Positions 28,546 to 63,879 of a stretch of 64,000 nucleotides of DNA are shown here, in pieces. The notes under the pieces are model-generated. The model made no database searches and was not told where the DNA came from. It worked only from the letters and a program-made list of their open reading frames with translations. This DNA comes from an uncultured Methanobrevibacter sp. (GTDB lineage: Archaea; Methanobacteriota; Methanobacteria; Methanobacteriales; Methanobacteriaceae): positions 8,226 to 72,225 of the forward strand of contig OMVX01000004.1 in NCBI GenBank assembly GCA_900314605.1. The letters are read 5' to 3'. A program made the position numbers and the translations under genes. Numbering within the stretch: the first letter of the stretch is position 1; the number at the start of each line of letters is the position of its first letter.

Positions 28546-28605
28546 ATGTAATATAATTTTAACATATGTAACATAATTTTAACATATGTAACATAATTTT
28601 TACAA
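28546..28605. repeat. Three tandem 20-bp repeats (ATGTAACATAATTTTAACAT), operator-like
   Basis: Units at 28546-28565, 28566-28585, 28586-28605; each has dyad ends ATGT...ACAT; lie between a TATA (about 28536-28543) and the HTH gene. Confidence 0.85.
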
Positions 28606-39322: not shown

Positions 39323-40048
39323 TTATGGATTACATAGTTGACAAGGAGAGTATCCTTGGTCTATTGCAGATTGTCTAGAGGAAAATGAAACCTTATTATT
39401 TTCTGACATACGATCTAATGCAGAACAGGTAGGTAAATGAAACTTCATTGAATTTACATTTCCAATATACTCTCCTGTATCTTCACTGTTTGTATTAGTA
39501 TTTTTTTGACTATTGGAATAGTCACTACTATGTGTATTGTCACCTGCCCAGTTATTTGGGTTAAATTGACTTGGTGGTATATACATTATTTCAGCTAGTC
39601 CCTCTTTTAAGAGCATTTCATTAAGATTTTTTCCATCAACAATCACAACAGCTAATGTTCGACCATATTTATCATGAGATTTAGAATCATCTATATCAAT
39701 ACTGACCTCACGGTTTAAACATAATTTCTCAACAAAATATTTAGAAGTATCTGCACCTTCAACACCCTTTTCAGGTGTATTTACTCCTACAAGACGAATT
39801 TTATCTCCATTATCTAAATATATAGTATCTCCATCAACAACTTCAGTACATATTCCAGTTTTTTCACCTATACAATTAGTATCCTCATATTTGTTTAAGA
39901 TATCGCTAATAGATGAATCTTCATATGCACTTATTGGAATATTATGGGAAAATCCAGTACCTGTATAAGCACTTGCAAGTGTTATTGTTTCTATTGCTAC
40001 TGTTAGAATAATCAATAATAATAAAATCTTTTTCTTATTTAATTTCAT
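39323..40048 (-). CDS. Secreted thermonuclease (SNase) with C-terminal Ada-type Zn-binding domain
   Basis: Signal peptide; VVDGDTI, IRLVGVNTPE, DKYGRTLAVV; C-terminal GNVNSMKFHLPTC...GYSPCQLCNP. Confidence 0.88.
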   Translation of the reverse strand: MKLNKKKILLLLIILTVAIETITLASAYTGTGFSHNIPISAYEDSSISDILNKYEDTNCIGEKTGICTEVVDGDTIYLDNGDKIRLVGVNTPEKGVEGADTSKYFVEKLCLNREVSIDIDDSKSHDKYGRTLAVVIVDGKNLNEMLLKEGLAEIMYIPPSQFNPNNWAGDNTHSSDYSNSQKNTNTNSEDTGEYIGNVNSMKFHLPTCSALDRMSENNKVSFSSRQSAIDQGYSPCQLCNP

Positions 40049-48348: not shown

Positions 48349-48375
48349 ACCCATCCTCTAATTCTAATTTAATAC

Positions 48376-48461
48376 ATAATACTATTTTTTAAATTATACT
48401 ATTTTTAATACATTATACTATTTTTATAAATTATAATATTTTTATAAATTATACTATTTTT
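48376..48461. repeat. Five imperfect copies of ATTATACTATTTTT (period 17-19 bp)
   Basis: Copies start at 48376, 48393, 48412, 48430, 48448. Confidence 0.7.
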
Positions 48462-48893
48462 AATACTTTTTATTAATTCTAAAATTATTTAAGAACTTAC
48501 TATTTTAACAATTTAGATACTTTACAATAATAAGAAATAATGTATTTTTTTTATAATTCATATATTAACTTAGATTTAATTAAAATCATTTAAATTTATG
48601 AAATTATTTTTAAAAAGAAATTTATAAAAAAATTTTTATTTTGAAAAATATTTATAAAATGAGATATATTTTAAATTTAAATAATAAGATTTGATTATTA
48701 TTGTATACATTATTTTATATGCTTAGTAAAATTTTACTTTATAGCAATTATTGAGTTTGCTTATTCTTATATGTTTAAGTACAAACTCATATTTTATATT
48801 CATAATTATCTAAAATTTTTTATAATAAGTAATTTAATATACTATATTAACCAATTTTATATTTATATTATATTTATTTTTTAAGGGATATTT

Positions 48894-49778: not shown

Positions 49779-50696
49779 ATGTTAGATTCATTATATGAAG
49801 AAGCATTAAAAAAGAGAGGGAAAATTATAGCTGAAATTGAAGAGTTTAACTCTTTAGATATAGATATTGCTGATTATTGGAATTTTAAATATGTTGAACC
49901 CTCTAATGAAGATATTAAAATCGCTGCAGGTGATGGAAGTTATTCTCATAAAAAATTTTTAGCATTTAATTTATATGCAGTTGCAGCTCTAGCTATCATT
50001 TATGATGGGAAAAATTTAGAGGAAATAGAAAAAGTCGAACTAGATACTGCAGAACATCATAAATTCTTTACAGATAAACTTAGAGCAAAAATGAGTATTT
50101 TTGAGATTAAAAATGCAGTTAGTGCAATTAATGATTATGGAGTGAATTATTTTTTAATAGATGGGTCATTATTCGGTGATTTAATTAGACCAATTCCTAA
50201 AGATAAAGATTTAAAGGATTTAGCTCTGGAAAATTTAGATAATATTCATAAATTTTTAAAACATAGAAAAAAAATTATTGCAATATCAAAAACATCAAGT
50301 TCTAATGATGTATTTCATAGTAATTATCCGGATATGTCAATTTTTGAGAGATTAAATAAAACAGAAGGATATTCTAATCCAATTTATAAGAATCTTAGTA
50401 GTGAAATGAAGTTTGAATTTCCTATACACAATACTTTCTTCAGGTCATTTGAATTTACAATTTTTTATCTGAGATTAGATGATTATAAAAATATTTTAAA
50501 GGTTGAACTTCCATATAAAGCCGATAAAAAACAGATAGAAGAAATTATTTCAATAATTAAAAGAGAATCTATAGAGGGTTATCCTTATTTACTTAAAAAG
50601 GCTCATAAGGGAGTTGTAATTAAAAATAAAAATATTGATGAACTTGCAACTATTATAGGTTTATATGAAAAATCAGGTAGAGAAATGTTAAATTAA
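49779..50696 (+). CDS. nurA: DNA double-strand break repair nuclease NurA
   Basis: AAGDGS, LIDGSL, IAISKTS, GYPYLLKKAH; operon context. Confidence 0.92.
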   Translation: MLDSLYEEALKKRGKIIAEIEEFNSLDIDIADYWNFKYVEPSNEDIKIAAGDGSYSHKKFLAFNLYAVAALAIIYDGKNLEEIEKVELDTAEHHKFFTDKLRAKMSIFEIKNAVSAINDYGVNYFLIDGSLFGDLIRPIPKDKDLKDLALENLDNIHKFLKHRKKIIAISKTSSSNDVFHSNYPDMSIFERLNKTEGYSNPIYKNLSSEMKFEFPIHNTFFRSFEFTIFYLRLDDYKNILKVELPYKADKKQIEEIISIIKRESIEGYPYLLKKAHKGVVIKNKNIDELATIIGLYEKSGREMLN

Positions 50697-50753
50697 TAAT
50701 ATAATTTAGATGAATTTAGATTAATGTAATTAAATAAGGTTTAAGGTGAAAAA

Positions 50754-52310
50754 ATGGAAAATATTATAGGTCGTAGTATAGGTGAAACTTCACTAACACA
50801 GATAAGCTTTATATCTAAAGATATGCCAAAAATGGGTGAATATGTTACAATGGAATATAATAATCAAATAATACTTGGAATGATTGAATCATTAGTTCGT
50901 GGAAGTGTATCTCTTAATGCTGATATATATGATCCAGATACAATTTATCGTATAAGAAGTATTGAAGGAGATGATTATTATATTAAAGGTACAATAAAAA
51001 TTCTTGGAGATATTGATAATTTAAAAATTCCACGTACTCCTGCACCACCTGCAACTGAAATAAAAATTGCAAGTAAGGAAATTTTAAATAAAGTCTTTAA
51101 AAATGAAAATGGTTTAAAATTAGGTAATTTAATTTCTAATGATAATGTTTCTGTAAAATTAGATATTAATAAAATGGTATCACGTCATCTTGCTATACTT
51201 GCTATGACAGGAGCGGGTAAGTCTAATACTGTTAGTGTATTAATAGATGGATTACTTGAGAAAAATGGTTGTCCTTTTATTTTTGATATGCATTCTGAAT
51301 ATGTTAATGCTGATTTTCCAAATGGTAAAGTTAATATCATTAAACCTGTAATAAATCCATTACATATGGATTTTCCAGAGATCCAATCACTTGCTAATAT
51401 TAGATCAAATTCTTATATTCAGGAAAGATACTTTAGAAAGGCTTTTTATCTTGCTAAAAAGGAAATTAGAAGTGGAACAGCATCTAGTCAAAATTTTATT
51501 CAAATCATTAAAGATTTCCTTAATTATTGGTATGGTGATGGAACAGAAAGTGAAAAAGTAACTTATAATAATGAAATTATCTTCAATACCATATCTTCTA
51601 AGGATAAAAATTCTATTATGGATGTTTTAAACAAATTAGATGATTTGGAAGATAAATATGGGAAACTTTTTAACACTAATATAAATAGTATATTATCTCA
51701 AATAGAACTTGGTCAAGCTAATGTTATAGATTTAGGACAAGTTGATGATTTAATTTCTGAAGTTCTTGTTGAACATATACTTAGAGTTTCTCTTAAAAGT
51801 CGAAAAGATTATATTCATGGTAAAAAAGATGAACTCTCTTATCCAATATTCTTTGTTCTTGAAGAGGCTCATATTTTAGCTCCTAATGGACGTGATCCTA
51901 AATCTAAATATTGGATTAGAAGAATTGCTCGTGAAGGGCGTAAATTTGGTTTAGGATTATGTTTAGTTAGCCAATCTCCTAAAACAATAGACCCTGATGC
52001 TCTATCTCAGGCAAATAATATGATTATTTTAAGACTAGTTGAACCTAAAGATCAACGACATGTACAAACCGCAAGTGAATCTTTATCTGATGATTTGGTT
52101 ACTCAATTACCTTCTTTAAATATTGGGGAAGCTTTGGTTTTAGGGTTGATGACTAAGGTTCCTACACTTGTTAAAGTTGATGAATTTAAAGGTCGTAGTG
52201 TTGGAGGAGATATTGATATTTTAAATGCTTGGTCAAGTGAAGTTCAAAATGAACAAGTAGAATTAGAAAAACAAATGGAAGAATCTAAATCCTTAGATGG
52301 TTTATATTAA
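50754..52310 (+). CDS. herA: Bipolar DNA helicase/translocase HerA
   Basis: HAS barrel N-terminus, RHLAILAMTGAGKS, LEEAH, AREGRKFG, SQSP, LPSLNIGEAL. Confidence 0.95.
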   Translation: MENIIGRSIGETSLTQISFISKDMPKMGEYVTMEYNNQIILGMIESLVRGSVSLNADIYDPDTIYRIRSIEGDDYYIKGTIKILGDIDNLKIPRTPAPPATEIKIASKEILNKVFKNENGLKLGNLISNDNVSVKLDINKMVSRHLAILAMTGAGKSNTVSVLIDGLLEKNGCPFIFDMHSEYVNADFPNGKVNIIKPVINPLHMDFPEIQSLANIRSNSYIQERYFRKAFYLAKKEIRSGTASSQNFIQIIKDFLNYWYGDGTESEKVTYNNEIIFNTISSKDKNSIMDVLNKLDDLEDKYGKLFNTNINSILSQIELGQANVIDLGQVDDLISEVLVEHILRVSLKSRKDYIHGKKDELSYPIFFVLEEAHILAPNGRDPKSKYWIRRIAREGRKFGLGLCLVSQSPKTIDPDALSQANNMIILRLVEPKDQRHVQTASESLSDDLVTQLPSLNIGEALVLGLMTKVPTLVKVDEFKGRSVGGDIDILNAWSSEVQNEQVELEKQMEESKSLDGLY

Positions 52311-52710
52311 TTATATTTTCTTAATTTTTAAATTTCTAAAATTAATTTCATTATTTTTAAAATATAGAAATATACTTATTATTTTTATTAAAAATCCATT
52401 AATGCTTCTTAATTGAATTATAAAAATAAAAATAATTAAATTCTAAGCATATAAATATATTAAATATAATTTTATTTAATTATTTACTTCTCTTATTTAT
52501 TAATTTAATTTATTTAATAATATTTATATGTAGATTTTAATAAAATATAATAAGTAAATTTAAAAAATAATTTTAATTATTTACTAATTATTATTATTAA
52601 ATTTCTTTATTAATTATAAAATTAATTAATAAACTTTAATTTAGGAATATATTACTATTAAAAAATAATCAATATTTAATTATAATAAATTTTTCTTTAT
52701 TTGTGATAAT

Positions 52711-53847
52711 ATGAGATTTGCACATTTATCTGATACTCATTTAGGTTATAGGCAATATGGGTTAATTGACCGAGAAAAAGATTTTTACGATGCTTTTGAG
52801 CGAATTGTTGATAAAATAATAGAATTAGATTTAGATTTTGTAATTCATAGTGGGGATTTATTTGATAATTCCCGTCCTTCTACAGATGCTCTTATCGTAG
52901 TACAAAAAGAAATTAATAAGTTATCTGATGCAGGTATTCCAATATATGCTATTGCAGGTAATCATGATTTGTCCCGTAGATTAAACCCTATTCCTCCTCA
53001 AGTATTATTTAGAGATAATGGAATTAGATTAATTAGTCCTATTAAACCTTATTTCAAAGAAAAAGATTTATTTATCGGCGGTATCCCTTATATGCCTCAA
53101 AATAGAAATCTTGCATTTAAAGAAAAATTAAATACTTTATCTAAAAAAGCTGCTGATGTTAAAAATAAAATCTTAGTATTACATCAAGGTATCGATAAAT
53201 ATATTCCTCAATATGAAGTGGAAATTGGAGATATTCCTAGTAATTTTAATTATTATGCTATGGGTCATTTACATAATTATATTAATGATGAATATGGCCA
53301 AGGCCGTTTAGTATATCCAGGATCAACTGAAATTTGGAAATCTAATGAATTGAGTGATTATAATCTTAACGGTAAAGGTTTTGTTTTAGTAGATATGGAA
53401 GATGGTCAAGTAGAAACTGAAAGAATTTCAGTAGATATTCCTCGTAAATTTATTAATGTTCAAGTAGAATATGATAATTTCTATAAGGAAATGCCTAAGT
53501 TAAAAAATGAGATTAGTAAACTTGATTTACCACCTATTATTAATTTAAATGTTTTTGGTAATGATTTTTCTAGTAGTGAGGTTTATGATTATTTAACTAG
53601 ACATCTTTCAGATCTATGTTTATCATTTAGACCTACTTTTAATATTGAACAAAAATATGAAGAGTTAATAGATTTTAAAGAAGGTTCTATTAATATTAAT
53701 AGATTGATTGCTGAAAAATTTGAAGATGAAGGAGAAGACGTTGTTAAATTCACAATTAATTTATTTGAAGAACTGTCTAAAGATAAATTAGAAGCTGCTG
53801 AGGATAGTATTAAGATTTTCTATGACAATAGATATGGGGGTAATTAG
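52711..53847 (+). CDS. mre11: DNA repair exonuclease Mre11
   Basis: AHLSDTHLG, SGDLFD, AGNHD, LHQG, GHLH, YPGS. Confidence 0.96.
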   Translation: MRFAHLSDTHLGYRQYGLIDREKDFYDAFERIVDKIIELDLDFVIHSGDLFDNSRPSTDALIVVQKEINKLSDAGIPIYAIAGNHDLSRRLNPIPPQVLFRDNGIRLISPIKPYFKEKDLFIGGIPYMPQNRNLAFKEKLNTLSKKAADVKNKILVLHQGIDKYIPQYEVEIGDIPSNFNYYAMGHLHNYINDEYGQGRLVYPGSTEIWKSNELSDYNLNGKGFVLVDMEDGQVETERISVDIPRKFINVQVEYDNFYKEMPKLKNEISKLDLPPIINLNVFGNDFSSSEVYDYLTRHLSDLCLSFRPTFNIEQKYEELIDFKEGSININRLIAEKFEDEGEDVVKFTINLFEELSKDKLEAAEDSIKIFYDNRYGGN

Positions 53848-56628
53848 ATGATTATTGAAAAAATAGAAATTAAAAATTTTAAAAGCCATTTAAACAGTGA
53901 AATTCAATTTAATCCTGGTATTACCCTTATAATAGGTGAAAATGGTGCTGGTAAATCAACTATTTTAGAAGCAATTAGTTTTGCTTTATATAAACAGCAT
54001 TCTTCATCAAAACTTTCAGATTTAATTCGAACCACCAATAATAATCAAGTTTATAATACTATGGAAGTATCTTTAATTTTTATTTCCAATGGTAATCATT
54101 ATAAAATTGTTAGGACTAGAGATAAATCTAAATCTGCTTCAACTTTATATTCTCTTTACTTAAATGAAGATAATACTTATAAAATTAAGGATATACTATG
54201 TGAAGGAGATAAAAATGTAAACAAGGAAATTGAAAGAATTTTACAAATGGATGCAGATTTATTCTTAAATGCTATTTATGTTAGACAAGGAGAAATAGCG
54301 GAGCTAATAAGTAAAACCCCTTCTCAGAAAAAAAAACTTATAGCTAAATTATTAGGGATAGATTCCCTTGAAAAATCATGGAATAATATTAAACCATTTA
54401 TTTCTAACTATGAAAATTTGGAATCAGAATATAAAGGTAAATTATCAAAGAAAGAATTTAATTATAATGAACTTAAAGAGAAACAATTAATCTCTCAAAA
54501 TTTAAATACAGAAATTACTAAAATTCAAGAAGAATTAAACCAGATTAATACAATTTATTCTGATTTAAAAGTGGAAAAAGATAAATTACAAGATAATAAA
54601 GATAAATATTTTAATCTTAAAAATCAAATAGATGTTTCTTTAACCGAAATCGATTTGTTAAAAGAGGAAAAATCTGAACTTCAATCCCAACTAGATGATA
54701 TTAGAAAAAATGAAATAGAAATTAGAAGACTTGAAAAATATGTAGATAAACTTCCTGTTTATAAAGAATATAGAGAAGCATGTCTTAATTTAATGGAAAT
54801 CACTAAAAAGAAACAGGATTTAATTAAACAAAAGGAAAATTTTATAGAGCAAAATAATATTCTTTCAGAAAATGAAATAATTTACAATGATTATATTCGT
54901 CTTGAAAATATTATTAATGAGTTAAAAGAGGATAAATCAGATATTGAATCAGAACTTAAAGTTTATGATAAAATCATTAAAGATAAAAACTCTATTGAAA
55001 AGGAATACAATAAAGAACTCCATAATTTAAATAATTTTAAACAAAAATTAAAAGAAAATTTATCAGAATATCATCAAGATTTAGAAGAGGATTATGCTTT
55101 AACTAATGTAAGTAAATTTATTTCAGAATTTATTAAAAACTTGGAAGCTAAAGTCATTGAAATAGAAGATTCTATTTCAAATAAAAAATCACAAAACTCA
55201 AAGTTTACAGAAATTATTGCTCAAAATGAAAAACCTTTAAAAGATTTAGAATCTGTTGGAGATAAATGTCCAATATGTCAATCTAATATTTCTAACCAGA
55301 AAAAGCTTGATTTGAAAAAATTATATAAAGAATCTATATATGATTCTACTAATATTATAAATCAAAATAAAGAAGATATTAAAAATTTAGAATCTGATAA
55401 AATAATTATTAAAGATAAAATTAGCAATCTTATTAATATTGAGAAGGATGTCTCTTCTCATTTATATTTAATAGACAAAATTGAAGAACTAAAAAATAAA
55501 TTAGATTTAATTAATAAAGAAATTGATAATTTTAATGTTAATAATGATGATTTTAATAATTTAACCGAAAAAATTCAAATCGAAACTGATAGGCGTAATT
55601 TATCTAAAGAAGGGTATAATAAATATATTAAGGCTAAAGGTGCTATGGAACTTATAACTCCATTAAATGAAATAGATAATACTTTAAAACTTTTAGAAAA
55701 TGACCAAGATCATGAAGTTAAAATTATTAAAATAGCTATCAGTAAGGACAGTAGTTTAAATCAAGATATGGATATTGATGAGATAAATGGTAAAATTAAT
55801 GATTTAGAAAATAAGGTATCTAATTATAATTTACTTCAGGGAACTGTTAAAAATAAAACTAATATTGAATCAAAATTATTATTTAAAAAAGAATCTCTTG
55901 AAGAAAAACATCAGCATCTATTAAAATATGAAGAGGCTCTTAAATCATTTAATTATAATGAAGATAAATATAACTCACTTGCTATTCAAATAATTAATAT
56001 TGAAGATAAAGTCTTAAATTTATCAAATACGAAATCAAGATTAGAAGGAGAGTTAAAATCTATTAACGAAAATATAACTCTACTTCAAAATCAAGAAGAT
56101 GAATATAAACTTATGGAAATTGAATATAAGAATGTTTCTGATTATAAACTATTTTTAGAAAAGATTCGAAATCTTTTTTCCAAAGAAGGACTTCAAGAGG
56201 ATTTAAGAAAATTATCTAGACCTACTATTCAAAAATATACTAAAGATTTCTTTGAAGAATTTAATTTTGATTATTCTAGTTTAATTTTAGATGATGATTT
56301 TAATGTTACTCTTTATGGTCCTGAAGGAGAATCTAGTTTAAATATGGTTAGTGGTGGTGAAAAAATAGCAATTGCTCTTGCACTTAGACTTGGAATTACT
56401 AAAGCAATGAGTAGTGGCACTATAGAAACAATTCTTTTAGACGAACCAACTATCCATCTTGACAGTTATCGTAGAGTAGAATTAATAGCTTTATTAAGAA
56501 AAATGTCTTCTCTTCCACAAATGATTATTGTAACACACGATGAAGAATTGGAAAATGCTGCAGATAATATTATAAAAGTTAATAAAAATAATGGAATTTC
56601 TAGTGTTGTTGATGAAGCAGATAAATAA
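53848..56628 (+). CDS. rad50: DNA repair ATPase Rad50
   Basis: Walker A GENGAGKS, Q-loop YVRQGE, CPIC zinc hook, long coiled coils, SGGE signature, LLDEPT, THD. Confidence 0.96.
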   Translation: MIIEKIEIKNFKSHLNSEIQFNPGITLIIGENGAGKSTILEAISFALYKQHSSSKLSDLIRTTNNNQVYNTMEVSLIFISNGNHYKIVRTRDKSKSASTLYSLYLNEDNTYKIKDILCEGDKNVNKEIERILQMDADLFLNAIYVRQGEIAELISKTPSQKKKLIAKLLGIDSLEKSWNNIKPFISNYENLESEYKGKLSKKEFNYNELKEKQLISQNLNTEITKIQEELNQINTIYSDLKVEKDKLQDNKDKYFNLKNQIDVSLTEIDLLKEEKSELQSQLDDIRKNEIEIRRLEKYVDKLPVYKEYREACLNLMEITKKKQDLIKQKENFIEQNNILSENEIIYNDYIRLENIINELKEDKSDIESELKVYDKIIKDKNSIEKEYNKELHNLNNFKQKLKENLSEYHQDLEEDYALTNVSKFISEFIKNLEAKVIEIEDSISNKKSQNSKFTEIIAQNEKPLKDLESVGDKCPICQSNISNQKKLDLKKLYKESIYDSTNIINQNKEDIKNLESDKIIIKDKISNLINIEKDVSSHLYLIDKIEELKNKLDLINKEIDNFNVNNDDFNNLTEKIQIETDRRNLSKEGYNKYIKAKGAMELITPLNEIDNTLKLLENDQDHEVKIIKIAISKDSSLNQDMDIDEINGKINDLENKVSNYNLLQGTVKNKTNIESKLLFKKESLEEKHQHLLKYEEALKSFNYNEDKYNSLAIQIINIEDKVLNLSNTKSRLEGELKSINENITLLQNQEDEYKLMEIEYKNVSDYKLFLEKIRNLFSKEGLQEDLRKLSRPTIQKYTKDFFEEFNFDYSSLILDDDFNVTLYGPEGESSLNMVSGGEKIAIALALRLGITKAMSSGTIETILLDEPTIHLDSYRRVELIALLRKMSSLPQMIIVTHDEELENAADNIIKVNKNNGISSVVDEADK

Positions 56629-56649
56629 TTATTTAAATATAACTTAATA

Positions 56650-57066
56650 TTAATAATCATCTAATTCGTCATATTCTCCATTTACAACATTTTTTATTTC
56701 ATCTACAATACAGTTAGCATTCCATCCTATAATTGTAGTTGCAATTGATTCTAAATTTTCAGGTACTTCTTCTACACCATAAGGTCTAATAAGAACAATA
56801 GGAATATTATAATGTTTAGATGCATTTATTATATCATCTATTTCATCCTTATTATTGTTGTAAACTCCACTAAGTATTATAATAACATCAATTTTATTAA
56901 AAAAACTTTCAGGCATATGACTATAAGAAGCAGCCACAGATTCTTTCCATAAAAAATCGGTTTTAGAATATAATTTTTCATAAAATTGCTTATGATCATT
57001 TGATTTACTTTCCCCTCGTGAAATTAGTAAATTATAAATTTTATTATCTTTTTCTTCTTCAAACAT
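56650..57066 (-). CDS. MTH538-family TIR-like (DUF1863) protein
   Basis: DVIIILSG...IRPYGVEEVPENLE...IIGWNANCI closely matches the MTH538 pattern as recalled; adjacent to rad50. Confidence 0.8.
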   Translation of the reverse strand: MFEEEKDNKIYNLLISRGESKSNDHKQFYEKLYSKTDFLWKESVAASYSHMPESFFNKIDVIIILSGVYNNNKDEIDDIINASKHYNIPIVLIRPYGVEEVPENLESIATTIIGWNANCIVDEIKNVVNGEYDELDDY

Positions 57067-57495
57067 AATTTGACCTTTTATATTATTTTGTTTAATATAC
57101 TTATATATATTTAATAATTTTTAATTAATTAATAAATAAATTTTAAATTTATTGTAATTTTATATTATTTTCTTTTTAATTAAACATTCATTTTAAAATA
57201 TTATTAATTATAATAATAAAATATAATAAATATAATATATTTTTAAACGGATTTTTGTATATTTTTATAGAATTTTATTAGAAAATCATATATAAAATTA
57301 TTTAAATAAATTTTTATATATTATAATATACTTTTTAAATTAAAAATAAAATTCTTAAATTTAATAAATTAGAATATTTTATAAAAATTCTAATTTTTTA
57401 ATAATAAATATTAATTTCATTATTAAATTACTATTAAACTATAATAATTTTATTTAGACATTTTTTTTTTTATAAAATATGAAGGTTATATTAAA

Positions 57496-58785
57496 ATGAA
57501 AGCTGCGGTTATAGGACTAGGTGTTGAAGGTAGAAGTGCTTCAAAATCTTTATTAAAGCATGGTTGGTCAGTTTATGCATCAGACTTACAGACGGATATT
57601 AATTTAAAAGATCTTGGTATGCCTATAACTGATATTAATGTTTCAACCGATAATACAGAACAGATATCAATTGTTGCAGATGATATTTATATTGATTTAG
57701 GTTCTAATGATATTAACCAAATTAATTCATGTGATGCAATTGTATTAAGTCCTAGTATGTGGAAAAGTAAGTTTGCAAATCAATTTAAATCCTCAGGTAA
57801 ATTACTGCAGGATATATTAACCAAACATAGAACAATATATACTATTGGTGTAACTGGAACTAATGGAAAAACTACTTCTGTTTATATGATTAAATCTATT
57901 TTAGAAGATGGAGGTAAAAAAGTTTTAGTAGGTGGTAATGCTGGGGGAGGTTTTAAAGGATATTATGATTTGATTCTTGAAGCTTACATTGGAGATTATG
58001 ATGTTATATTAGTTGAAGTATGTGATATGACCTTAAGTTTCTGTAATGATTGTTTTGATTTTGATCTTATTGCTCTTACTAATATGGGAAATGATCATAT
58101 GGATGTACATGGTAGTATGGAAAACTATCGAGATGAACTGATTCATTTATTTAACAATAAAAAAATAATCATTCCAGAGAATCATCAATATCTTGAAGAT
58201 TTTTCTAAAGTCAGCATAAATCATAATATTTTTACAGAGTATCCTTTTGATTTTAATTTAGTTGGTAATTTTAATCGTCTCAATGCTGGTCTTGCTCTAG
58301 AAGTTGCTAGAGAAATTGGTATTTCAGATAATATTACAAAGAATACTTTAAAAAATTTCCAAGCGGTAGAAGGAAGACTTAAAGTATTTAACTTATATGA
58401 GTCTAGTATTTATATTGGTAAAACTGACAATTCAGATGCTGTTAAATCTATTTTTGATGAGGTTGATTTCTATGCAGCATTTATAGGAACTCCTAGACCT
58501 AATGAAAAACATCGTTTAGATATTTTAGATGAAGTTGTTCGTCATAATCCTAAGATTATTATTCTCTTTCCAGGTCTTGCTAATACAATTAATATGGCAA
58601 GATATCATCTGGATTTATTAAATTATAAAGGAGAAGTTTATATAGCTAATAATTTAGATGAATTAATTAGTTTTGTAGCAGAATATGCTCATGAAGACCC
58701 ATTATTTATTGGTGGTAATGGTCAAGAGGTTATTGTTTCTATTCAAAAACGTCTTGAAAAATTATGTAAAGTGTGTAATAGTTAA
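57496..58785 (+). CDS. Mur ligase family protein (pseudomurein peptide ligase, MurD-like)
   Basis: Rossmann VIGLGVEG, VLSPS, GVTGTNGKTT P-loop, DHMDVH, FNRLNA, EGRLK. Confidence 0.85.
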   Translation: MKAAVIGLGVEGRSASKSLLKHGWSVYASDLQTDINLKDLGMPITDINVSTDNTEQISIVADDIYIDLGSNDINQINSCDAIVLSPSMWKSKFANQFKSSGKLLQDILTKHRTIYTIGVTGTNGKTTSVYMIKSILEDGGKKVLVGGNAGGGFKGYYDLILEAYIGDYDVILVEVCDMTLSFCNDCFDFDLIALTNMGNDHMDVHGSMENYRDELIHLFNNKKIIIPENHQYLEDFSKVSINHNIFTEYPFDFNLVGNFNRLNAGLALEVAREIGISDNITKNTLKNFQAVEGRLKVFNLYESSIYIGKTDNSDAVKSIFDEVDFYAAFIGTPRPNEKHRLDILDEVVRHNPKIIILFPGLANTINMARYHLDLLNYKGEVYIANNLDELISFVAEYAHEDPLFIGGNGQEVIVSIQKRLEKLCKVCNS

Positions 58786-58914
58786 AAATAGTTTATATTT
58801 TAATATTTTTTATTAAAATCGATATCTTTTTAAATGATATCTTTAAGAAATTTATATGAAAAATTCAAATATGATTTTTTATTAACTTATTTATTTTATT
58901 TAGGATTGTAATAC

Positions 58915-60477
58915 ATGGATAGAGAAGATTTTATTTCTAGTTTGTCTAATGGTGTAGTGGTTTTAGGTGGATGTGGAATAGTAGGTAGTTTAATTGCTCG
59001 TATTTTAGCGTCACATAATATTGATGTGACTATTAAGGATTCTGTTTCAGAAACATTTCTCGAACCTATATTTAAAAATGAGGGTGTGCATTTGTGTTTA
59101 TCTCATCAATTAGATAATAATTCATTTAATAATATATCTGCTATTTTTATTGCCCCAAGTTTACTTAATAATAAAATATTTATGGGAAAGGTTAATAATT
59201 TTAATACAAATAATTTACCGATTTATTCTATTGATGAGATTTTAACCTATTTTACTCCTGATAAACCGGTTATAGGTGTAACAGGTACAAATGGTAAAAG
59301 TACTACAACACATAGCCTAAAACATATTTTCTCTGTAAATGGTTATAAAGTTCCTAGTCATGGTTTACCTATACAAGGAAATAATGAATATACTCCTTCA
59401 TTACAATCACGTTTAAGTGGAGATATTGGAATTTTAGAAATAGGTACTTTTGGTATTGCAGGTGAAATCTATACTTCTGCATCTAATTCTCATGTTAATA
59501 TGGGTGTTATAACTAATATTACACATGATCATTTAAATAATGGTAGTTATGAAGATTATATTAATTGTAAAAAGGAAATGATTCAAGTTGCAGATGAGCT
59601 TGTTTTAGATGGGGATGACCCAACATTGTTAAATATTGTAGAAACAGATAATAAAAAAATTTATTATTTTGGTATAAAAGATATGGATAATCCTCTTTTT
59701 AAAGATTCTAAATATAATATGACATGTCCAAAATGTGGATGCAAACTTAAATATGATATACATTATCTTAGAAGTTTAGGTGAATTTAATTGTGAGTGTG
59801 GTTTTACTAATCCTCCTTTAAATGTTTATGCAGATAATATTCAGATTATTAAAGAAAATAATATTACCAAAACTTCTTATACTATTCACTTTGAAGATCA
59901 AGAGTCAGCTACTATTAATTTACCTAATAGTGGTATTCATAATGTTTATAACTCACTTGCAGCTGCTTGTGCCGCTTGGAAATCTGGTTTAGATATTGAC
60001 CAGATTATTAAAGGAATAGAATCATTTAATGGAGTTCCAGGTAGATTAGAATATATTCATAATGACCCTACAATTATCATAGATTTTGCACATAATCCTG
60101 CAGGTGTAGAGACGATTATTAGAACTGTTTTACAACTTAAAACAGATAATAATAAGATTATTGTACTAAATACTATCTCATCAGAAAGTGGACGTGAAGG
60201 AGATATGGTTATTGCAGATGTACTTTCAAGTGCTGATATTGTTATTCCTGTCTCTTCATCTTCTGTAGAGATTTCAAAATATATCCAAACTAAGGTTGTT
60301 AATTTTGAAAATCAATCTAAGTTTAATAAAACAGGTACATTAGGTTCATCACCAGAACAAGTTGAAGAAGGTTTAAAGTTAGCATTAGAATTAAGTAACT
60401 CAAATGATATAATTCTTGTTTTAGGTGAAGCTGGTGTTAAATATTCTAAAAATGCATTAAATAAAATTTTACAATAA
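58915..60477 (+). CDS. Mur ligase family protein (pseudomurein peptide ligase, MurC-like, with Zn-ribbon insertion)
   Basis: VLGGCGIVGS, GVTGTNGKST, TNITHDHL, CPKC...CEC insertion, HNVYNSLAA, PGRLE, DFAHNP. Confidence 0.85.
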   Translation: MDREDFISSLSNGVVVLGGCGIVGSLIARILASHNIDVTIKDSVSETFLEPIFKNEGVHLCLSHQLDNNSFNNISAIFIAPSLLNNKIFMGKVNNFNTNNLPIYSIDEILTYFTPDKPVIGVTGTNGKSTTTHSLKHIFSVNGYKVPSHGLPIQGNNEYTPSLQSRLSGDIGILEIGTFGIAGEIYTSASNSHVNMGVITNITHDHLNNGSYEDYINCKKEMIQVADELVLDGDDPTLLNIVETDNKKIYYFGIKDMDNPLFKDSKYNMTCPKCGCKLKYDIHYLRSLGEFNCECGFTNPPLNVYADNIQIIKENNITKTSYTIHFEDQESATINLPNSGIHNVYNSLAAACAAWKSGLDIDQIIKGIESFNGVPGRLEYIHNDPTIIIDFAHNPAGVETIIRTVLQLKTDNNKIIVLNTISSESGREGDMVIADVLSSADIVIPVSSSSVEISKYIQTKVVNFENQSKFNKTGTLGSSPEQVEEGLKLALELSNSNDIILVLGEAGVKYSKNALNKILQ

Positions 60478-60532
60478 TCTTAAATCTAATTAACTATATT
60501 TAATAATTAAAAAGATAAATAATGGTGTAATA

Positions 60533-61225
60533 ATGGTAAGTGCAGTTGTTACAGGAGCTGGATTAAGTTCTAGAATGATATCTGATTTAGAAAGAAATAA
60601 TCTTCCTATACAGAATAAATTAACTCTTCCTTTATATAAAGATAAAGATATTTCAAAAACTATCCTGGAGTTTACTTTGGATAATGTATTTAACTCAAAT
60701 ATTGATGAATGTATTTTAGTACTAGGCCATTATAAAGATGAAATTATTGAATCATTAAATCAGGATTACCTTGATAAAGTTAAAATTGTTGAAAATAATC
60801 CTAAAGATGTATCTTTATCAATGTCATTATATAATGGTTTAAAAAATATAAACCATGAATATGTCTTATGTGTATCAGCAGACCAACCAACAATTACAAG
60901 TAGTACATATAAGAATATTATTAATTCATTTTTTAATAGTAACAATCCTAAAAAATCCATCACCTTTTTAAGAAGAAGAGAAATTGGACATTTAGAAAGT
61001 CCTTTAGGCCTTGGTATGCCTTTTACTGTTTCAAAAGACCTTATTATGCCTTATTTAAAAGATGGAGATTCTAATTTAAATCCTATTCTTAGAAAAATAT
61101 TTGATGATCGAATTCAATTTTATGCTGTTAAAGAACAATTTGACTTTGAACTTGTAAATATCAATCATTATACAGATTTAGAATTTGTTATTAAGAATAT
61201 AAATTTTCAGAATTACGAATTATAA
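60533..61225 (+). CDS. MobA-like nucleotidyltransferase (NTP_transf_3) linked to Mur ligases
   Basis: AVVTGAGLSSRM, NKL.LP, VLGH, MSLYNGL, SADQP, NINHYTD. Confidence 0.8.
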   Translation: MVSAVVTGAGLSSRMISDLERNNLPIQNKLTLPLYKDKDISKTILEFTLDNVFNSNIDECILVLGHYKDEIIESLNQDYLDKVKIVENNPKDVSLSMSLYNGLKNINHEYVLCVSADQPTITSSTYKNIINSFFNSNNPKKSITFLRRREIGHLESPLGLGMPFTVSKDLIMPYLKDGDSNLNPILRKIFDDRIQFYAVKEQFDFELVNINHYTDLEFVIKNINFQNYEL

Positions 61226-61587
61226 ACTTTTTTTTTATTATAATTATAATTATCTCTTTATTATTTTATTTTCTGAATAATCCATAATAAGATATTTTTA
61301 ATATTGTTTAATTAAAAGGGATTTATTTTTTAAATATTAAAAATCATTTATTGATTAATTTTTCTATAAATATATATTAAATCATAATTTTATAAATAGA
61401 GTAAACAATCATTAAAAATCATTTTTTAAATTATAAATTATAATTTTATAAAGAATTTAATCCTTATAATCACTTTTTGATATTTTTTATTGAAAATTCT
61501 ATTTTTAATATTACTATTTTAATAAAAAATCATATTTTACAAATAAATTTACAAATAATTATATAATAGTAAGTTAAATTATTATTA

Positions 61588-62196
61588 ATGAATAATAATA
61601 TAACACTTGTTACTACTCAAAAAAAATTTAATGATATACCTTATATAAATCAGATATATAAAATTAAAAAAATATCACTTATTTATAGTGAACTTAATAA
61701 TCCTGCTGATTTAGAAAGTAATTCTCTTTTAGAAGAAATGGATATTGATATTCTCAATTTTAAACTTCCATATATAGATTTAATAGATATGACTACAAAA
61801 ATATCCAAATATTTAATTAAAGAAGCAAAATCTTCTAATGAGATCATAGTAAAATTATCTAATGATAATGGTATCCTTAATATGGCATTATTTTATGCTG
61901 CATGTTATAATAAAAAAAATATAAAATCTGTAATTATCTATGATACTAATCTTCACAAAATATTACATTTACCATTATTTGATTTTAAATTATCAGATGC
62001 TAAAAAAGTTATATTAAAAAATATCCAAAAAGGAAAAAATTCTATAGAAGATATAGCAAAAGCAGTAGGTCGTAGTAATAGTATGGTCTATAATCATATT
62101 AGAGATTTAAAAGACATGGGTTTTATTGAAAAAGATTCCTTAAAAATAAATAATGCTGCTGAAATCATCTTAAGTTTAGAAAATATAAGGTGCTAA
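61588..62196 (+). CDS. Csa3-like CARF-domain + winged-HTH transcriptional regulator (paralogue 1)
   Basis: N-terminal Rossmann-like CARF pattern (TLVTT...IIVKLS...MALFYAA), LPLF linker, C-terminal wHTH SIEDIAKAVGRSNSMVYNHIRDLKDMGFI. Confidence 0.7.
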   Translation: MNNNITLVTTQKKFNDIPYINQIYKIKKISLIYSELNNPADLESNSLLEEMDIDILNFKLPYIDLIDMTTKISKYLIKEAKSSNEIIVKLSNDNGILNMALFYAACYNKKNIKSVIIYDTNLHKILHLPLFDFKLSDAKKVILKNIQKGKNSIEDIAKAVGRSNSMVYNHIRDLKDMGFIEKDSLKINNAAEIILSLENIRC

Positions 62197-62197
62197 T

Positions 62198-62803
62198 ATG
62201 AATATAACACTAATTTCTCCCATTAATGGTTTTAAATCTTTGTCATTAGCAGTAGATAAATTTAAACCAGAAACTGTTGTTTTACTTACTGATGATAAAA
62301 ATTCTTCTGAAAACAAAGATATCATGGAAGAATTGTATAAAAAGATGGGACGTTTTTTAGAAATTAAAATTTATGAAATTGATAATAAGGATCTCTACTT
62401 AATAGCCTCTCAAACATTTAACATTATTTCTAAAGAAATTAAACAGAATAAAAAAGTTATTTTACATTTAACAGAAGATTATTCTATTCAGGGTATGGCA
62501 TTATCTTATGCAGCATGTTCATTTATTCATGATATTTATAAATTAACAATAATGGACCCTACTACAGATAAAATAGTAGATTTACCTTTATTTAATTATA
62601 ATATATCTAAAAATAAAATAAAAATTCTGCTCTATATTAATAATGGAGTAAATAATGTTAAAGATTTATCTGAAAAAACAGAATTATCTTCAAGTATGAC
62701 CTATAATCATATTAAAGATTTAAGAAAATCAGGTTATATTGACCCTGATAAACTAGAATTAACAACAGCAGGAAAAATAGCAATTTTAAACTTTCAAGAA
62801 TAA
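62198..62803 (+). CDS. Csa3-like CARF-domain + winged-HTH transcriptional regulator (paralogue 2)
   Basis: TLISPI...FKPETVVLL...DLYLIA...VILHLT...MALSYAA, LPLF linker, wHTH VKDLSEKTELSSSMTYNHIKDLRKSGYI, ELTTAGKIAIL; 1-nt gap after paralogue 1. Confidence 0.78.
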   Translation: MNITLISPINGFKSLSLAVDKFKPETVVLLTDDKNSSENKDIMEELYKKMGRFLEIKIYEIDNKDLYLIASQTFNIISKEIKQNKKVILHLTEDYSIQGMALSYAACSFIHDIYKLTIMDPTTDKIVDLPLFNYNISKNKIKILLYINNGVNNVKDLSEKTELSSSMTYNHIKDLRKSGYIDPDKLELTTAGKIAILNFQE

Positions 62804-63255: not shown

Positions 63256-63879
63256 ATGGTACTTTCTAGTATAGGAAAAAAAGGTGTAATGCTTACCAAA
63301 GTTGCATTAGAATATGGCAATGAAAGACTTAATCAAATTAATGATGATGAATTAATAAATCTTACTAAAGATTTAGGAAAAAAATACATTAATATATTTG
63401 ATGAGAAAGCTAATGATATCATGGATAAAACATTAGATAAAGCTAATGATAAATTAGATGATGTTAAAAATGGCGAAGACAATATTTCTAAAGGAAAAGA
63501 ATATGTTAAAGGCCAAATAAAAGATGCTATTGTTTATGCTGATAGTAAATTCACAAGTTCTGTAGAAGAGACAGAGGTTGAATTATCTTTAAGAAAAAAA
63601 CAAAGACAAGAAAGAAAAGAATTACTTTCTAAACATAAAGAAGAAATTATTGAATTACAGAAAAAACAGTCTAAAGAACAATATGATGCATTAAAAGATA
63701 AAGTCGATGATTTAAAAGTTAAAAAAGATGTTGCAGAAGAAAAACTTAAAGATAGAAAAGATGAATATGTAAAAGATGCAAAATCTACTAAAAATTATGT
63801 TAAAAAAACCGCAAAAGATGTTCAGCAAGATATTTCTGATATAAAAGATGCAAAAAAAGATAATAAAGATAAAAAATAG
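63256..63879 (+). CDS. Highly charged helical/coiled-coil hypothetical protein
   Basis: 207 aa, K/D/E-rich, no TM or Cys, AGGTGA RBS. Confidence 0.65.
   Translation: MVLSSIGKKGVMLTKVALEYGNERLNQINDDELINLTKDLGKKYINIFDEKANDIMDKTLDKANDKLDDVKNGEDNISKGKEYVKGQIKDAIVYADSKFTSSVEETEVELSLRKKQRQERKELLSKHKEEIIELQKKQSKEQYDALKDKVDDLKVKKDVAEEKLKDRKDEYVKDAKSTKNYVKKTAKDVQQDISDIKDAKKDNKDKK

What the first reader, a model, noticed from the sequence alone, without database searches (positions are those of the whole stretch)
61588..62803. Tandem pair of orphan Csa3-like CARF-wHTH regulators with degenerate ligand motifs
Seen: two ~200-aa paralogues separated by 1 nt. Their C-terminal wHTH is nearly identical (LPLF..S..K..IL..I..G.N...D......S.SM.YNHI.DL...G.I..D.L), while the N-terminal Rossmann-like domains have diverged. 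The canonical CARF motif NxTGGx(K/R) reads KLSNDNG and HLTEDYS. No cas gene, CRISPR array or cOA synthase is in the window; the neighbours are cell-wall ligases and a charged hypothetical gene. Established: Csa3 proteins are CARF-wHTH dimers that bind cyclic oligoadenylate and regulate CRISPR loci. Inference: this may be a coupled heterodimeric sensor that kept one DNA specificity but evolved an asymmetric or new ligand pocket, i.e. a possible non-CRISPR nucleotide-signalling regulator in gut methanogens.
Basis: partly seen in the sequence, partly recalled or inferred. Interest (0 to 1): 0.72.

Follow-up and report, generated by a model that had tools for sequence, protein, structure and literature searches.

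The report
Duplicated ligand-blind Csa3-type regulators, Methanobrevibacter
Two adjacent genes of a rumen methanogen encode duplicated Csa3-type (CARF sensor plus DNA-binding) regulators that have lost every sequence feature needed to bind the CRISPR alarm molecule. This is a real but modest variant of a known protein family, not a new kind of signalling system.

Summary
ORF A (61588-62196, 202 aa) and ORF B (62198-62803, 201 aa) are paralogues 1 nt apart (BLASTP E 6e-25). Both fold as CARF + winged helix, and Csa3 is the top structural match for each. Both match a catalogued CARF3 (Csa3-clade) profile end to end. The loop that reads N-x-T/S-G-G-R-K in the family reads KLSNDNG and HLTEDYS here. 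The other two pocket loops are changed as well. No cas gene was found among about 44 window ORFs, and there is no CRISPR array.

Two points in the finding are overstated. The wHTH domains are only about 38-41% identical; only the recognition helix is shared. The heterodimer or new-ligand idea is untested, and the pocket loops are the least conserved part of B.

Close relatives with intact loops sit beside type I-E cas operons or beside UvrD/PD-(D/E)xK helicase-nucleases in defence islands. The Methanobrevibacter copies have lost the loops, including the single-copy gene of M. filiformis. They lie between a pseudomurein ligase operon and an AddAB-like operon.

Best reading: a defence-derived Csa3 regulator lost cOA sensing and then duplicated. 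Orphan Csa3-like regulators are already known (HFX_2341/Crr). It is a new variant of a known kind, of moderate-low interest.

The parts
61588..62196 (+). ORF A, Csa3-like CARF-wHTH protein, 202 aa. It is the faster-evolving paralogue.
   Evidence: Its N-domain is only 49% identical to its orthologue P0023, against 80% for the wHTH.
62198..62803 (+). ORF B, Csa3-like CARF-wHTH protein, 201 aa. It is the slower-evolving paralogue and the closer of the two to single-copy relatives.
   Evidence: Its N-domain is 73% identical to its orthologue P0027.
61588..61971 (+). CARF (Rossmann-like) domain of A, residues 1-128
   Evidence: AF2 secondary structure is b1-a1-b2-b3-a-b4-a4-b5-b6. Foldseek finds only CARF proteins at the top.
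61972..62193 (+). Linker (LPLF) plus winged helix-turn-helix of A, residues 129-202
   Evidence: Pfam HTH_24 and HTH_5 score above their cut-offs. The recognition helix SNSMVYNHIRDL lies at 62074-62109.
61852..61872 (+). A b4-a4 loop KLSNDNG, in place of the family's N-x-T-G-G-R-K
61606..61629 (+). A b1-a1 loop LVTTQKKF, in place of the family's LISTIY
61939..61956 (+). A b5-b6 loop YDTNLH, in place of the family's (Y)VTEEDN. This is the loop that holds Glu122 in Csa3Sso.
   Evidence: PMC8844856
62198..62578 (+). CARF domain of B, residues 1-127
62579..62800 (+). Linker plus wHTH of B, residues 128-201
   Evidence: Pfam HTH_5 scores 32.9 bits. The recognition helix SSSMTYNHIKDL lies at 62687-62722.
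62465..62485 (+). B b4-a4 loop HLTEDYS, in place of N/H-x-T-x-G-R-K
62210..62233 (+). B b1-a1 loop LISPINGF. B orthologues in other species still read LISTIYDF.
62552..62569 (+). B b5-b6 loop MDPTTD, in place of VTEEDN
62188..62192 (+). Shine-Dalgarno-like AGGTG for B. It lies inside the last codons of A, 5 nt before B's ATG, so translational coupling is likely.
   Evidence: Sequence. RNA contigs from three metatranscriptomes span the A/B junction.
61226..61587 (+). 362-nt intergenic region upstream of A (9.7% G+C). It presumably holds the pair's promoter and operator. No motif could be defined.
   Evidence: The RNA contig of the pMur operon ends at 61219.
57496..61225 (+). Upstream neighbours pMurD2, pMurC and PmurB (pseudomurein peptide synthesis). 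They form a separate transcript and are not shown to be part of the system.
63256..63879 (+). Downstream 207-aa Lys/Asp/Glu-rich protein with no family match. It occupies a slot that differs between species.

Best explanation
The two genes are a tandem duplicate of one Csa3-family (CARF3 clade) CARF-wHTH transcription factor in a ruminant-gut Methanobrevibacter lineage. They are transcribed together, and B's ribosome-binding site sits inside the end of A.

The family is defence-derived. Its closest relatives with intact ligand loops are transcribed divergently from type I-E cas operons or from UvrD/PD-(D/E)xK helicase-nuclease genes in defence islands. In Methanobrevibacter the gene sits at a fixed chromosomal place, between the pseudomurein ligase operon and an AddAB-like UvrD + PD-(D/E)xK operon. 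There it has lost all three loops that form the cyclic-oligoadenylate pocket in Csa3: b1-a1, b4-a4 and b5-b6.

Inferred mechanism: both proteins still bind DNA as CARF-mediated dimers through a shared recognition helix, as homodimers and possibly as an A/B heterodimer. They no longer respond to cA4. The CARF domain now serves mainly as a dimerisation scaffold. They probably act as constitutive or otherwise-controlled repressors of their own promoter and of nearby or dispersed genes, as reported for the orphan haloarchaeal relative HFX_2341/Crr.

Shown: gene structure, paralogy, fold, family placement, loop loss, genomic contexts and co-transcription. Inferred: dimerisation, loss of ligand response, repressor role and targets.
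For: Paralogy. Family: TIGR01884; PADLOC CARF3 PDLC01849, full length, 99 and 148 bits; an exhaustive HMM search gives 123 representatives at E<=1e-10, nearly all about 200 aa, named Csa3 or 'CRISPR locus-related DNA-binding protein' by their sources.

Fold: AF2 pLDDT 84.5 and 91.9. The Foldseek top hits for both are Csa3 6wxq and 2wte, followed by the CARF proteins Sis0811, Sso1393, Csm6, Can2, Cam1 and Card1.

Loop loss: the family consensus is LISTIY / N-x-T-G-G-R-K / VTEEDN. A reads LVTTQK / KLSNDNG / YDTNLH, B reads LISPIN / HLTEDYS / MDPTTD, and M. filiformis reads NISSSIE. These loops are the cA4 contacts in Csa3Sso (PMC8844856).

Context of intact-loop relatives: a type I-E cas3-cas8e-cas11e-cas7e-cas5e-cas6e-cas1e operon in 5 loci; UvrD/PD in M. 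maripaludis, M. vannielii, the M. hollandica plasmid, L033 and L039.

Context in Methanobrevibacter: the same synteny in L001, L002, L003-L006 and L007, with no cas genes.

Relaxed pocket: B's pocket loops are 47-58% identical among orthologues, against 70-76% for the rest of the domain.

Co-transcription: RNA contigs 61906-62389, 61913-62409 and 61916-62484 span the junction. The SD sequence lies inside A.

Precedent for an orphan Csa3-like global repressor: PMC11434293.
Against: No binding, dimerisation or expression-control experiment exists. Loss of canonical motifs does not prove loss of all ligand binding. B's N-domain is well conserved overall (73%), so it is under selection for something.

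The timing of the duplication is uncertain. A neighbour-joining tree joins A and B, yet each wHTH is closer to the M. filiformis protein (49%) than to the other paralogue (37.5%). That means either fast divergence after duplication or an older duplication followed by loss.

The RNA evidence comes from assembled metatranscriptome contigs, which may include DNA carry-over. No operator could be found in intergenic DNA of 8-10% G+C. The whole genome was not examined for cas10.
Confidence: 0.6

Rival explanations
1. One reading: A and B form an obligate heterodimer. Its asymmetric, remodelled CARF pocket senses a different small molecule (another nucleotide or a metabolite). This would be a non-CRISPR signalling regulator.
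For: The genes are 1 nt apart with the SD inside A, and they are co-transcribed. Both genes are kept in every locus where context is visible. The a4 helix MAL(F/S)YAAC is nearly identical in the two, so the interface may be compatible. The two pockets differ from each other. B's N-domain is under purifying selection.
Against: The single-copy M. filiformis protein has already lost R-K, so the loss is not a product of pairing. Pocket loops are the least conserved part of B and no better conserved than the background in A. In the reindeer-MAG relative the genes are about 150 nt apart. No multimer model or ligand test is available.
Confidence: 0.2
2. The pair still regulates a CRISPR-Cas locus elsewhere in the genome, and may still respond to cOA through a non-canonical pocket. 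On this reading it is 'orphan' only in position.
For: Close relatives with intact loops are divergent from type I-E cas operons. Another Methanobrevibacter species carries type III-A and I-B systems at distant loci (PMC13078230). HFX_2341, 178 kb from the nearest array, represses cas genes when over-expressed.
Against: All three cA4-contact loops are changed in both proteins. No cas gene or array lies within the window or within 10 kb in four Methanobrevibacter loci.
Confidence: 0.1
3. The pair is a local regulator of the neighbouring genes: either the pseudomurein peptide-ligase operon upstream, or the AddAB-like UvrD + PD-(D/E)xK and MZB-helicase genes downstream.
For: The position between PmurB and the PD-(D/E)xK/UvrD operon is kept in the window species, the reindeer MAG, L002 and M. 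filiformis, and PmurB is nearby in L008. Intact-loop relatives in Methanococcus and Methanomethylovorans are paired with a UvrD/PD-(D/E)xK gene. An MZB helicase 42% identical to the Methanobrevibacter one lies nearby in M. maripaludis too. S. islandicus Csa3a is reported to activate DNA-repair genes (cited in PMC11434293 and PMC8844856).
Against: Synteny within one genus may simply be inherited. The Methanobrevibacter UvrD is only about 29% identical to the Methanococcus one, and it is convergent with the regulator rather than divergent. The pMur RNA contig ends before the pair. Two pseudomurein papers searched (PMC11915815, PMC10117817) mention no regulator.
Confidence: 0.15
4. A is a decaying duplicate on its way to loss, or a dominant-negative partner, and only B is the working regulator.
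For: A's N-domain is 49% identical between orthologues, against 73% for B. A lacks the a2 helix that B has. A has a lower pLDDT and lower family scores.
Against: A is intact in at least three species-level lineages and in more than 200 contigs. Its wHTH is 80% conserved. It is transcribed.
Confidence: 0.1

Closest known systems
Csa3 / Csa3a / Csa3b of Saccharolobus and Sulfolobus (PDB 2WTE, 6W11, 6WXQ; TIGR01884)
   Same: About 200 aa, with an N-terminal CARF domain and a C-terminal wHTH. It is the best structural match for both A and B. The HMM match is above the cut-off for A.
   Different: 15-18% sequence identity. cA4-binding motif 1 (phi-G-F-N/D-x-z-F), motif 2 (G-phi-R) and the Glu122 loop are all absent. 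The pair is not next to a type I-A cas cassette. B scores below the TIGR01884 cut-off.
CARF3 subfamily represented by PADLOC model PDLC01849. Sources name its members Csa3 or 'CRISPR locus-related DNA-binding protein' in Methanococcus, Methanomethylovorans, Woesearchaeota and Thermoplasmatota.
   Same: End-to-end profile match (A 99 bits, B 148 bits). Same length and architecture, the same LP linker, and the same M-x-Y-x-H-I-x-x-L recognition helix.
   Different: Those members keep LISTIY, N-x-T-G-G-R-K and VTEEDN. They sit beside type I-E cas operons or UvrD/PD-(D/E)xK genes in defence islands. The window pair has lost the loops, is duplicated, and lies among housekeeping genes.
HFX_2341 / Crr of Haloferax mediterranei (founder of Pfam PF19810 HFX_2341_N)
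   Same: An orphan Csa3-like CARF-wHTH regulator, far from any CRISPR locus and present in CRISPR-negative species. It acts as a broad repressor (PMC11434293). B hits PF19810 weakly, and most family relatives hit it.
   Different: HFX_2341 is 308 aa and single-copy. B scores 26.4 bits against a cut-off of 30, and A does not hit. No experiment exists for the methanogen proteins.
ArsR/SmtB-type wHTH regulators (the label given to the closest relatives in NCBI)
   Same: The C-terminal wHTH scores above the Pfam HTH_5 cut-off in both.
   Different: ArsR proteins are about 100 aa and have no CARF domain. The ArsR label describes only the last 70 residues.

Membership tests
Csa3 (TIGR01884 cas_HTH) | Whole-protein HMM score at or above the curated cut-off (60.2 bits) | tested here: inconclusive
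   A scores 71.6 bits and passes. B scores 53.8 bits and fails.
Csa3 (TIGR01884 cas_HTH) | [quoted passage not shown] | tested here: met
   AF2 models with pLDDT 84.5 and 91.9. Foldseek top hits are 6wxq and 2wte (E 2e-8 to 3e-9), followed by other CARF proteins. Pfam HTH_5 and HTH_24 score above their cut-offs.
Csa3 (TIGR01884 cas_HTH) | cA4-binding motif 1 (phi-G-F-N/D-x-z-F) in the b1-a1 loop, as defined in PMC8844856 | tested here: not met
   A reads LVTTQKKF and B reads LISPINGF. There is no G-F-N/D.
Csa3 (TIGR01884 cas_HTH) | cA4-binding motif 2 / general CARF motif (D/N)-x-(S/T)-x3-(R/K) in the b4-a4 loop | tested here: not met
   A reads KLSNDNG and B reads HLTEDYS. The R/K is missing in both, and the D/N is missing too.
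Csa3 (TIGR01884 cas_HTH) | Encoded next to CRISPR-cas (typically type I-A) | tested here: not met
   No array. No cas gene among about 44 window ORFs. None within 10 kb in L001, L002, L003-L006 or L007. The rest of the genome was not examined.
Csa3 (TIGR01884 cas_HTH) | Binds cyclic tetra-adenylate and regulates cas or repair genes | not testable with these tools
   This needs ITC/DSF and ChIP or DAP-seq.
CARF3 clade (profile carried in PADLOC as PDLC01849; origin in Makarova et al. 2020 recalled from memory, paper not held in the library) | Full-length match to the clade or subfamily profile | tested here: met
   A: 99 bits, E 6.8e-29, profile positions 4-195 of 197. B: 148 bits, E 6.6e-44, positions 1-197 of 197.
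HFX_2341_N (Pfam PF19810) | Score at or above the gathering threshold (30 bits) on the N-terminal domain | tested here: not met
   B scores 26.4 bits and A has no hit. Most family relatives carry the precomputed hit.
ArsR/SmtB wHTH (Pfam HTH_5) | wHTH domain above the gathering threshold (22 bits) | tested here: met
   A scores 27.4 bits and B scores 32.9 bits, over the C-terminal ~45 residues only.

The most novel reading that the evidence does not exclude
A defence-derived Csa3 receptor lost cyclic-oligoadenylate sensing, duplicated, and now works as an A/B heterodimeric housekeeping regulator in Methanobrevibacter. It would control either pseudomurein peptide synthesis or the neighbouring AddAB-like break-repair genes, possibly in response to a new ligand bound in an asymmetric pocket.
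Probability: 0.15. Interest if true: 0.6.

Novelty: new variant of a known kind. Interest (0 to 1): 0.35.

Why it matters
If the reading is right, the pair is a clean natural example of a CRISPR-signalling receptor domain being retired. The CARF fold and the DNA-binding helix are kept, while all three cOA-contact loops decay. This happens exactly in the lineage where the gene has left cas and defence neighbourhoods. That helps annotation, because NCBI labels such genes either 'CRISPR-associated CARF protein Csa3' or 'ArsR family regulator', and neither label describes them well. It also gives a sequence rule for telling cOA-competent members of this CARF3 subfamily from cOA-blind ones. Finally, it points to a candidate regulator beside the pseudomurein and break-repair genes of rumen methanogens, for which the two pseudomurein papers searched here mention no regulator. 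It does not open a new class of signalling.

Tried and rejected
1. Sequence-only PDB search with A or B found only wHTH proteins, not Csa3. A family profile reached Csa3 only at E 0.05. Structure comparison was needed.
2. The genome-contig scan with alignment A1 returned only 2 loci, because the patterns were too narrow. A4 worked.
3. Operator search: k-mers shared between the flanking intergenic regions of the window, L001 and L007 gave only a ribosome-binding site. The sigma-70 and terminator scan was below the shuffled expectation and does not apply to archaea.
4. The pair is not part of a phage. There was no tblastn hit in 50,697 phage records and only one plasmid hit.
5. Amino-acid polymorphism among near-identical strain variants was uninformative.
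6. The idea that the Methanobrevibacter UvrD + PD-(D/E)xK genes are a split orthologue of the Methanococcus 1014-aa fusion was rejected as unproven. They share only 29% identity over the N-terminal 350 residues.
7. Makarova et al. 2020 (the CARF classification) could not be read; it is not held in the library.
8. P0289 could not be located on any contig.
Full report
**1. What is in the sequence**

Two + strand ORFs occupy exactly the stated coordinates. ORF A runs 61588-62196 (202 aa) and ORF B runs 62198-62803 (201 aa). One base separates A's TAA from B's ATG. An AGGTG at 62188-62192, inside A's last codons, lies 5 nt before B's start. The two proteins are paralogues: BLASTP gives 40% identity over residues 78-193, E 6e-25. 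The window has 24.5% G+C. Close relatives are labelled Methanobrevibacter. The sequencing runs that hold the region come from bovine, sheep and other gut samples.

**2. What the proteins are**

- NCBIfam TIGR01884 (cas_HTH, Csa3) matches A at 71.6 bits, above the 60.2 cut-off, and B at 53.8 bits, below it.
- Pfam sees only the C-terminal winged helix (HTH_5, HTH_24), plus a sub-threshold HFX_2341_N hit for B.
- The best PADLOC model for both is PDLC01849 'CARF3--CARF'. It matches end to end: A 99 bits, B 148 bits.
- AlphaFold2 models are confident: A has pLDDT 84.5 and B has 91.9. Both show a Rossmann-like b1-a1-b2-(a2)-b3-a3-b4-a4-b5-b6 domain followed by a wHTH.
- Foldseek against the PDB puts Csa3 (6wxq, 2wte, 6w11) first for both. 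Other CARF proteins follow: the ring nucleases Sis0811 and Sso1393, then Csm6, Can2, Cam1 and Card1.

**3. The family and the loops**

An exhaustive profile search of 1.84 billion representatives found 262 hits at E<=1e-3 and 123 at E<=1e-10. Nearly all are about 200 aa and match full length. Sources name them Csa3, 'CRISPR locus-related DNA-binding protein' or 'HFX-2341-like'. They occur in Methanococcus, Woesearchaeota and other DPANN archaea, Thermoplasmatota and Methanobrevibacter.

The cA4 contacts of Csa3Sso lie in three loops: b1-a1, b4-a4 and b5-b6 (PMC8844856). In the family alignment all three are conserved. They read L-I-S/T-T-I/L-Y, N/H-x-T/S-x-G-R-K-T/P-Q, and Y-V-T-E-E-D-N.

| Protein | b1-a1 | b4-a4 | b5-b6 |
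|---|---|---|---|
| Family consensus | LISTIY | N-x-T-G-G-R-K | VTEEDN |
| Window A | LVTTQK | KLSNDNG | YDTNLH |
| Window B | LISPIN | HLTEDYS | MDPTTD |

The single-copy protein of M. filiformis (P0030, NISSSIE) and several other Methanobacteriales-type members also lack R-K. The loss is therefore not a consequence of the pairing.

**4. What is overstated in the finding**

The wHTH halves are 37.5% identical. Each is closer to the M. filiformis wHTH (49%) than to the other. What the two share is the recognition helix S-x-S-M-x-Y-N-H-I-x-D-L and the LPLF linker, and both features are largely family-wide.

The two paralogues evolve at different rates. A's N-domain is 49% identical to its orthologue P0023, and B's is 73% identical to P0027. 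Both wHTH domains are 78-80% identical to their orthologues.

Among B orthologues the 19 pocket-loop positions are 47-58% identical, against 70-76% for the rest of the N-domain. In A the two classes are equal. That pattern fits relaxed constraint on the pocket better than a newly selected pocket. The numbers are small, so this is a soft argument.

**5. Context in Methanobrevibacter**

Upstream lie NurA, HerA, Mre11 and Rad50, then the pseudomurein genes pMurD2, pMurC and PmurB. Downstream is a 207-aa Lys/Asp/Glu-rich protein with no family match.

Beyond the window's end, read from identical contigs L003-L006, the genes are a PD-(D/E)xK protein (433 aa, minus strand), a UvrD/AddA-like helicase (819 aa, minus strand), PspC, and a DEAD/MZB helicase.

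The same order holds in a reindeer-rumen MAG, where A is 60% and B about 73% identical to the window proteins and the two genes are about 150 nt apart. It also holds in L002. In M. filiformis a single copy sits between PmurB/DUF169 and ExoEndoPhos/PD-(D/E)xK/UvrD.

No CRISPR array, Rfam element or cas gene is present in the window or in these loci. The two pseudomurein papers searched (PMC11915815, PMC10117817) mention no regulator.

**6. Context of relatives with intact loops**

- In M. maripaludis KA1 and M. vannielii SB the homologue is divergent from a 1014-1016-aa UvrD/PD-(D/E)xK fusion. It is flanked by BREX and Shedu genes in the first species and by a type I restriction-modification system in the second.
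- The regulators of these two species are 99% identical and the helicase-nucleases are 92.6% identical. This points to recent transfer of a two-gene module between species; that is inference.
- On plasmid pMETHO01 of Methanomethylovorans hollandica, csa3 is divergent from an operon containing a 1015-aa helicase-nuclease that is 52% identical to the Methanococcus one.
- A metagenome scan returned 24 loci, mostly 70-75% identical to the M. hollandica protein. In five of them (L025, L026, L027, L029, L035) the gene is divergent from a complete type I-E operon: cas3, cas8e, cas11e, cas7e, cas5e, cas6e and cas1e. In two more (L033, L039) it is divergent from the UvrD/PD gene.
- All of these relatives keep the three loops.

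The subfamily is thus truly defence- and CRISPR-linked where the loops are intact, and it is 'orphan' where they are lost.

**7. Expression**

In three metatranscriptomes, assembled RNA contigs span the A/B junction: 61906-62389, 61913-62409 and 61916-62484. A separate 3.6-kb contig covers pMurD2 through PmurB and ends at 61219, right at PmurB's stop codon. The 207-aa gene has its own contig.

This supports an A-B bicistron that is separate from the pMur operon. The caveat is that contig data can include DNA.

**8. Mechanism proposed**

A defence-derived Csa3 regulator became fixed at a chromosomal site in Methanobrevibacter. It lost cOA sensing and was duplicated in a ruminant clade. A neighbour-joining tree joins A and B, but the timing is uncertain (section 4).

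Both copies keep the fold, the a4 helix (MAL-F/S-YAAC) and the recognition helix. They most likely bind the same or similar operators as CARF-mediated dimers and act without cA4. The targets are unknown. Candidates are their own promoter, the variable downstream slot, the pMur operon and the AddAB-like operon. A dispersed regulon, as in HFX_2341/Crr (PMC11434293), is also possible.

Heterodimerisation is plausible but untested.

**9. Comparison and novelty**

Orphan Csa3-like regulators are already described. HFX_2341/Crr is one studied case. Makarova 2014 (PMC4012209) notes that every CARF family has members not linked to CRISPR. The subfamily has an existing profile.

Three things are new here. 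The first is the correlation between loop integrity and defence or cas neighbourhood within one subfamily. The second is the complete loop loss in Methanobrevibacter. The third is the tandem duplication with asymmetric divergence.

This makes the pair a new variant of a known kind. 'No cOA synthase' cannot be claimed for the genome, because M. intestini carries type III-A elsewhere (PMC13078230).

Noticed in passing
L014 4828-8618 and L015 4823-8618 (Methanococcus maripaludis KA1, M. vannielii SB): The Csa3-like regulator (99% identical between the two species) and the divergent 1014-1016-aa UvrD/PD-(D/E)xK helicase-nuclease (92.6% identical) look like a recently exchanged two-gene module. It sits inside defence islands: BREX plus Shedu in one species, type I RM plus a DUF4011 helicase in the other. 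It may be an undescribed CARF-regulated helicase-nuclease defence module.
   Followed up: partly
L025, L026, L027, L029, L035 (metagenome contigs, 39-43% G+C): A Csa3-type CARF3 regulator with intact loops is divergent from a complete type I-E cas operon (cas3-cas8e-cas11e-cas7e-cas5e-cas6e-cas1e), apparently in Methanosarcinales-like archaea. By recollection, Csa3 is usually tied to type I-A.
   Followed up: partly
L019 (plasmid pMETHO01, NC_019972.1 127572-152156): csa3 is divergent from an operon: hypothetical 476 aa, TPR protein, UvrD/PD-(D/E)xK 1015 aa, hypothetical protein, helicase-related 1045 aa, HSP90-family ATPase. This looks like a multi-gene defence-like cassette.
   Followed up: partly
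window 49779-61225: The NurA-HerA-Mre11-Rad50 break-repair operon lies directly upstream of the pseudomurein genes pMurD2-pMurC-PmurB. A conserved 138-aa minus-strand ORF with no family match (56650-57066) sits between them. The order is the same in the reindeer MAG L001.
   Followed up: partly
window 63256-63879; L001 11701-12820; L007 10257-11018: The slot between the Csa3-like gene(s) and the PD-(D/E)xK/UvrD operon holds different genes in each species: a 207-aa K/D/E-rich protein here, proteins of 140 and 231 aa with no family in L001 and L002, and an Exo_endo_phos protein in M. filiformis. The 207-aa gene has the highest contig depth of the region in the metatranscriptomes (about 30-37).
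   Followed up: partly
L003 16863-19547 and L014 1-1649: A DEAD/MZB (DUF1998-type, TIGR03817-like) helicase lies within 10 kb of the Csa3-like gene in both Methanobrevibacter and M. maripaludis. The two helicases are 42% identical.
   Followed up: partly
window 28546-28604 and 48364-48488: Intergenic tandem repeats: 20 nt x 3 at 94% match, and 55/36/18-nt periods at 81-91% match. Function unknown.
   Followed up: no
window 322-1830 and 39323-40048 (minus strand): A 502-aa ORF with a TTG start has no NCBIfam match and only a weak PADLOC PD-Lambda-1 hit (E 6e-4). A 241-aa minus-strand ORF has a weak hit to PADLOC C3a212 'SNc+LTD' (E 2e-6).
   Followed up: no
L021 8718-9398 and relatives (L022-L024): In several Methanosarcinales-like contigs the gene just upstream of the Csa3 homologue matches PADLOC candidate family PDC-S05 very strongly (E 1e-103).
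   Followed up: no
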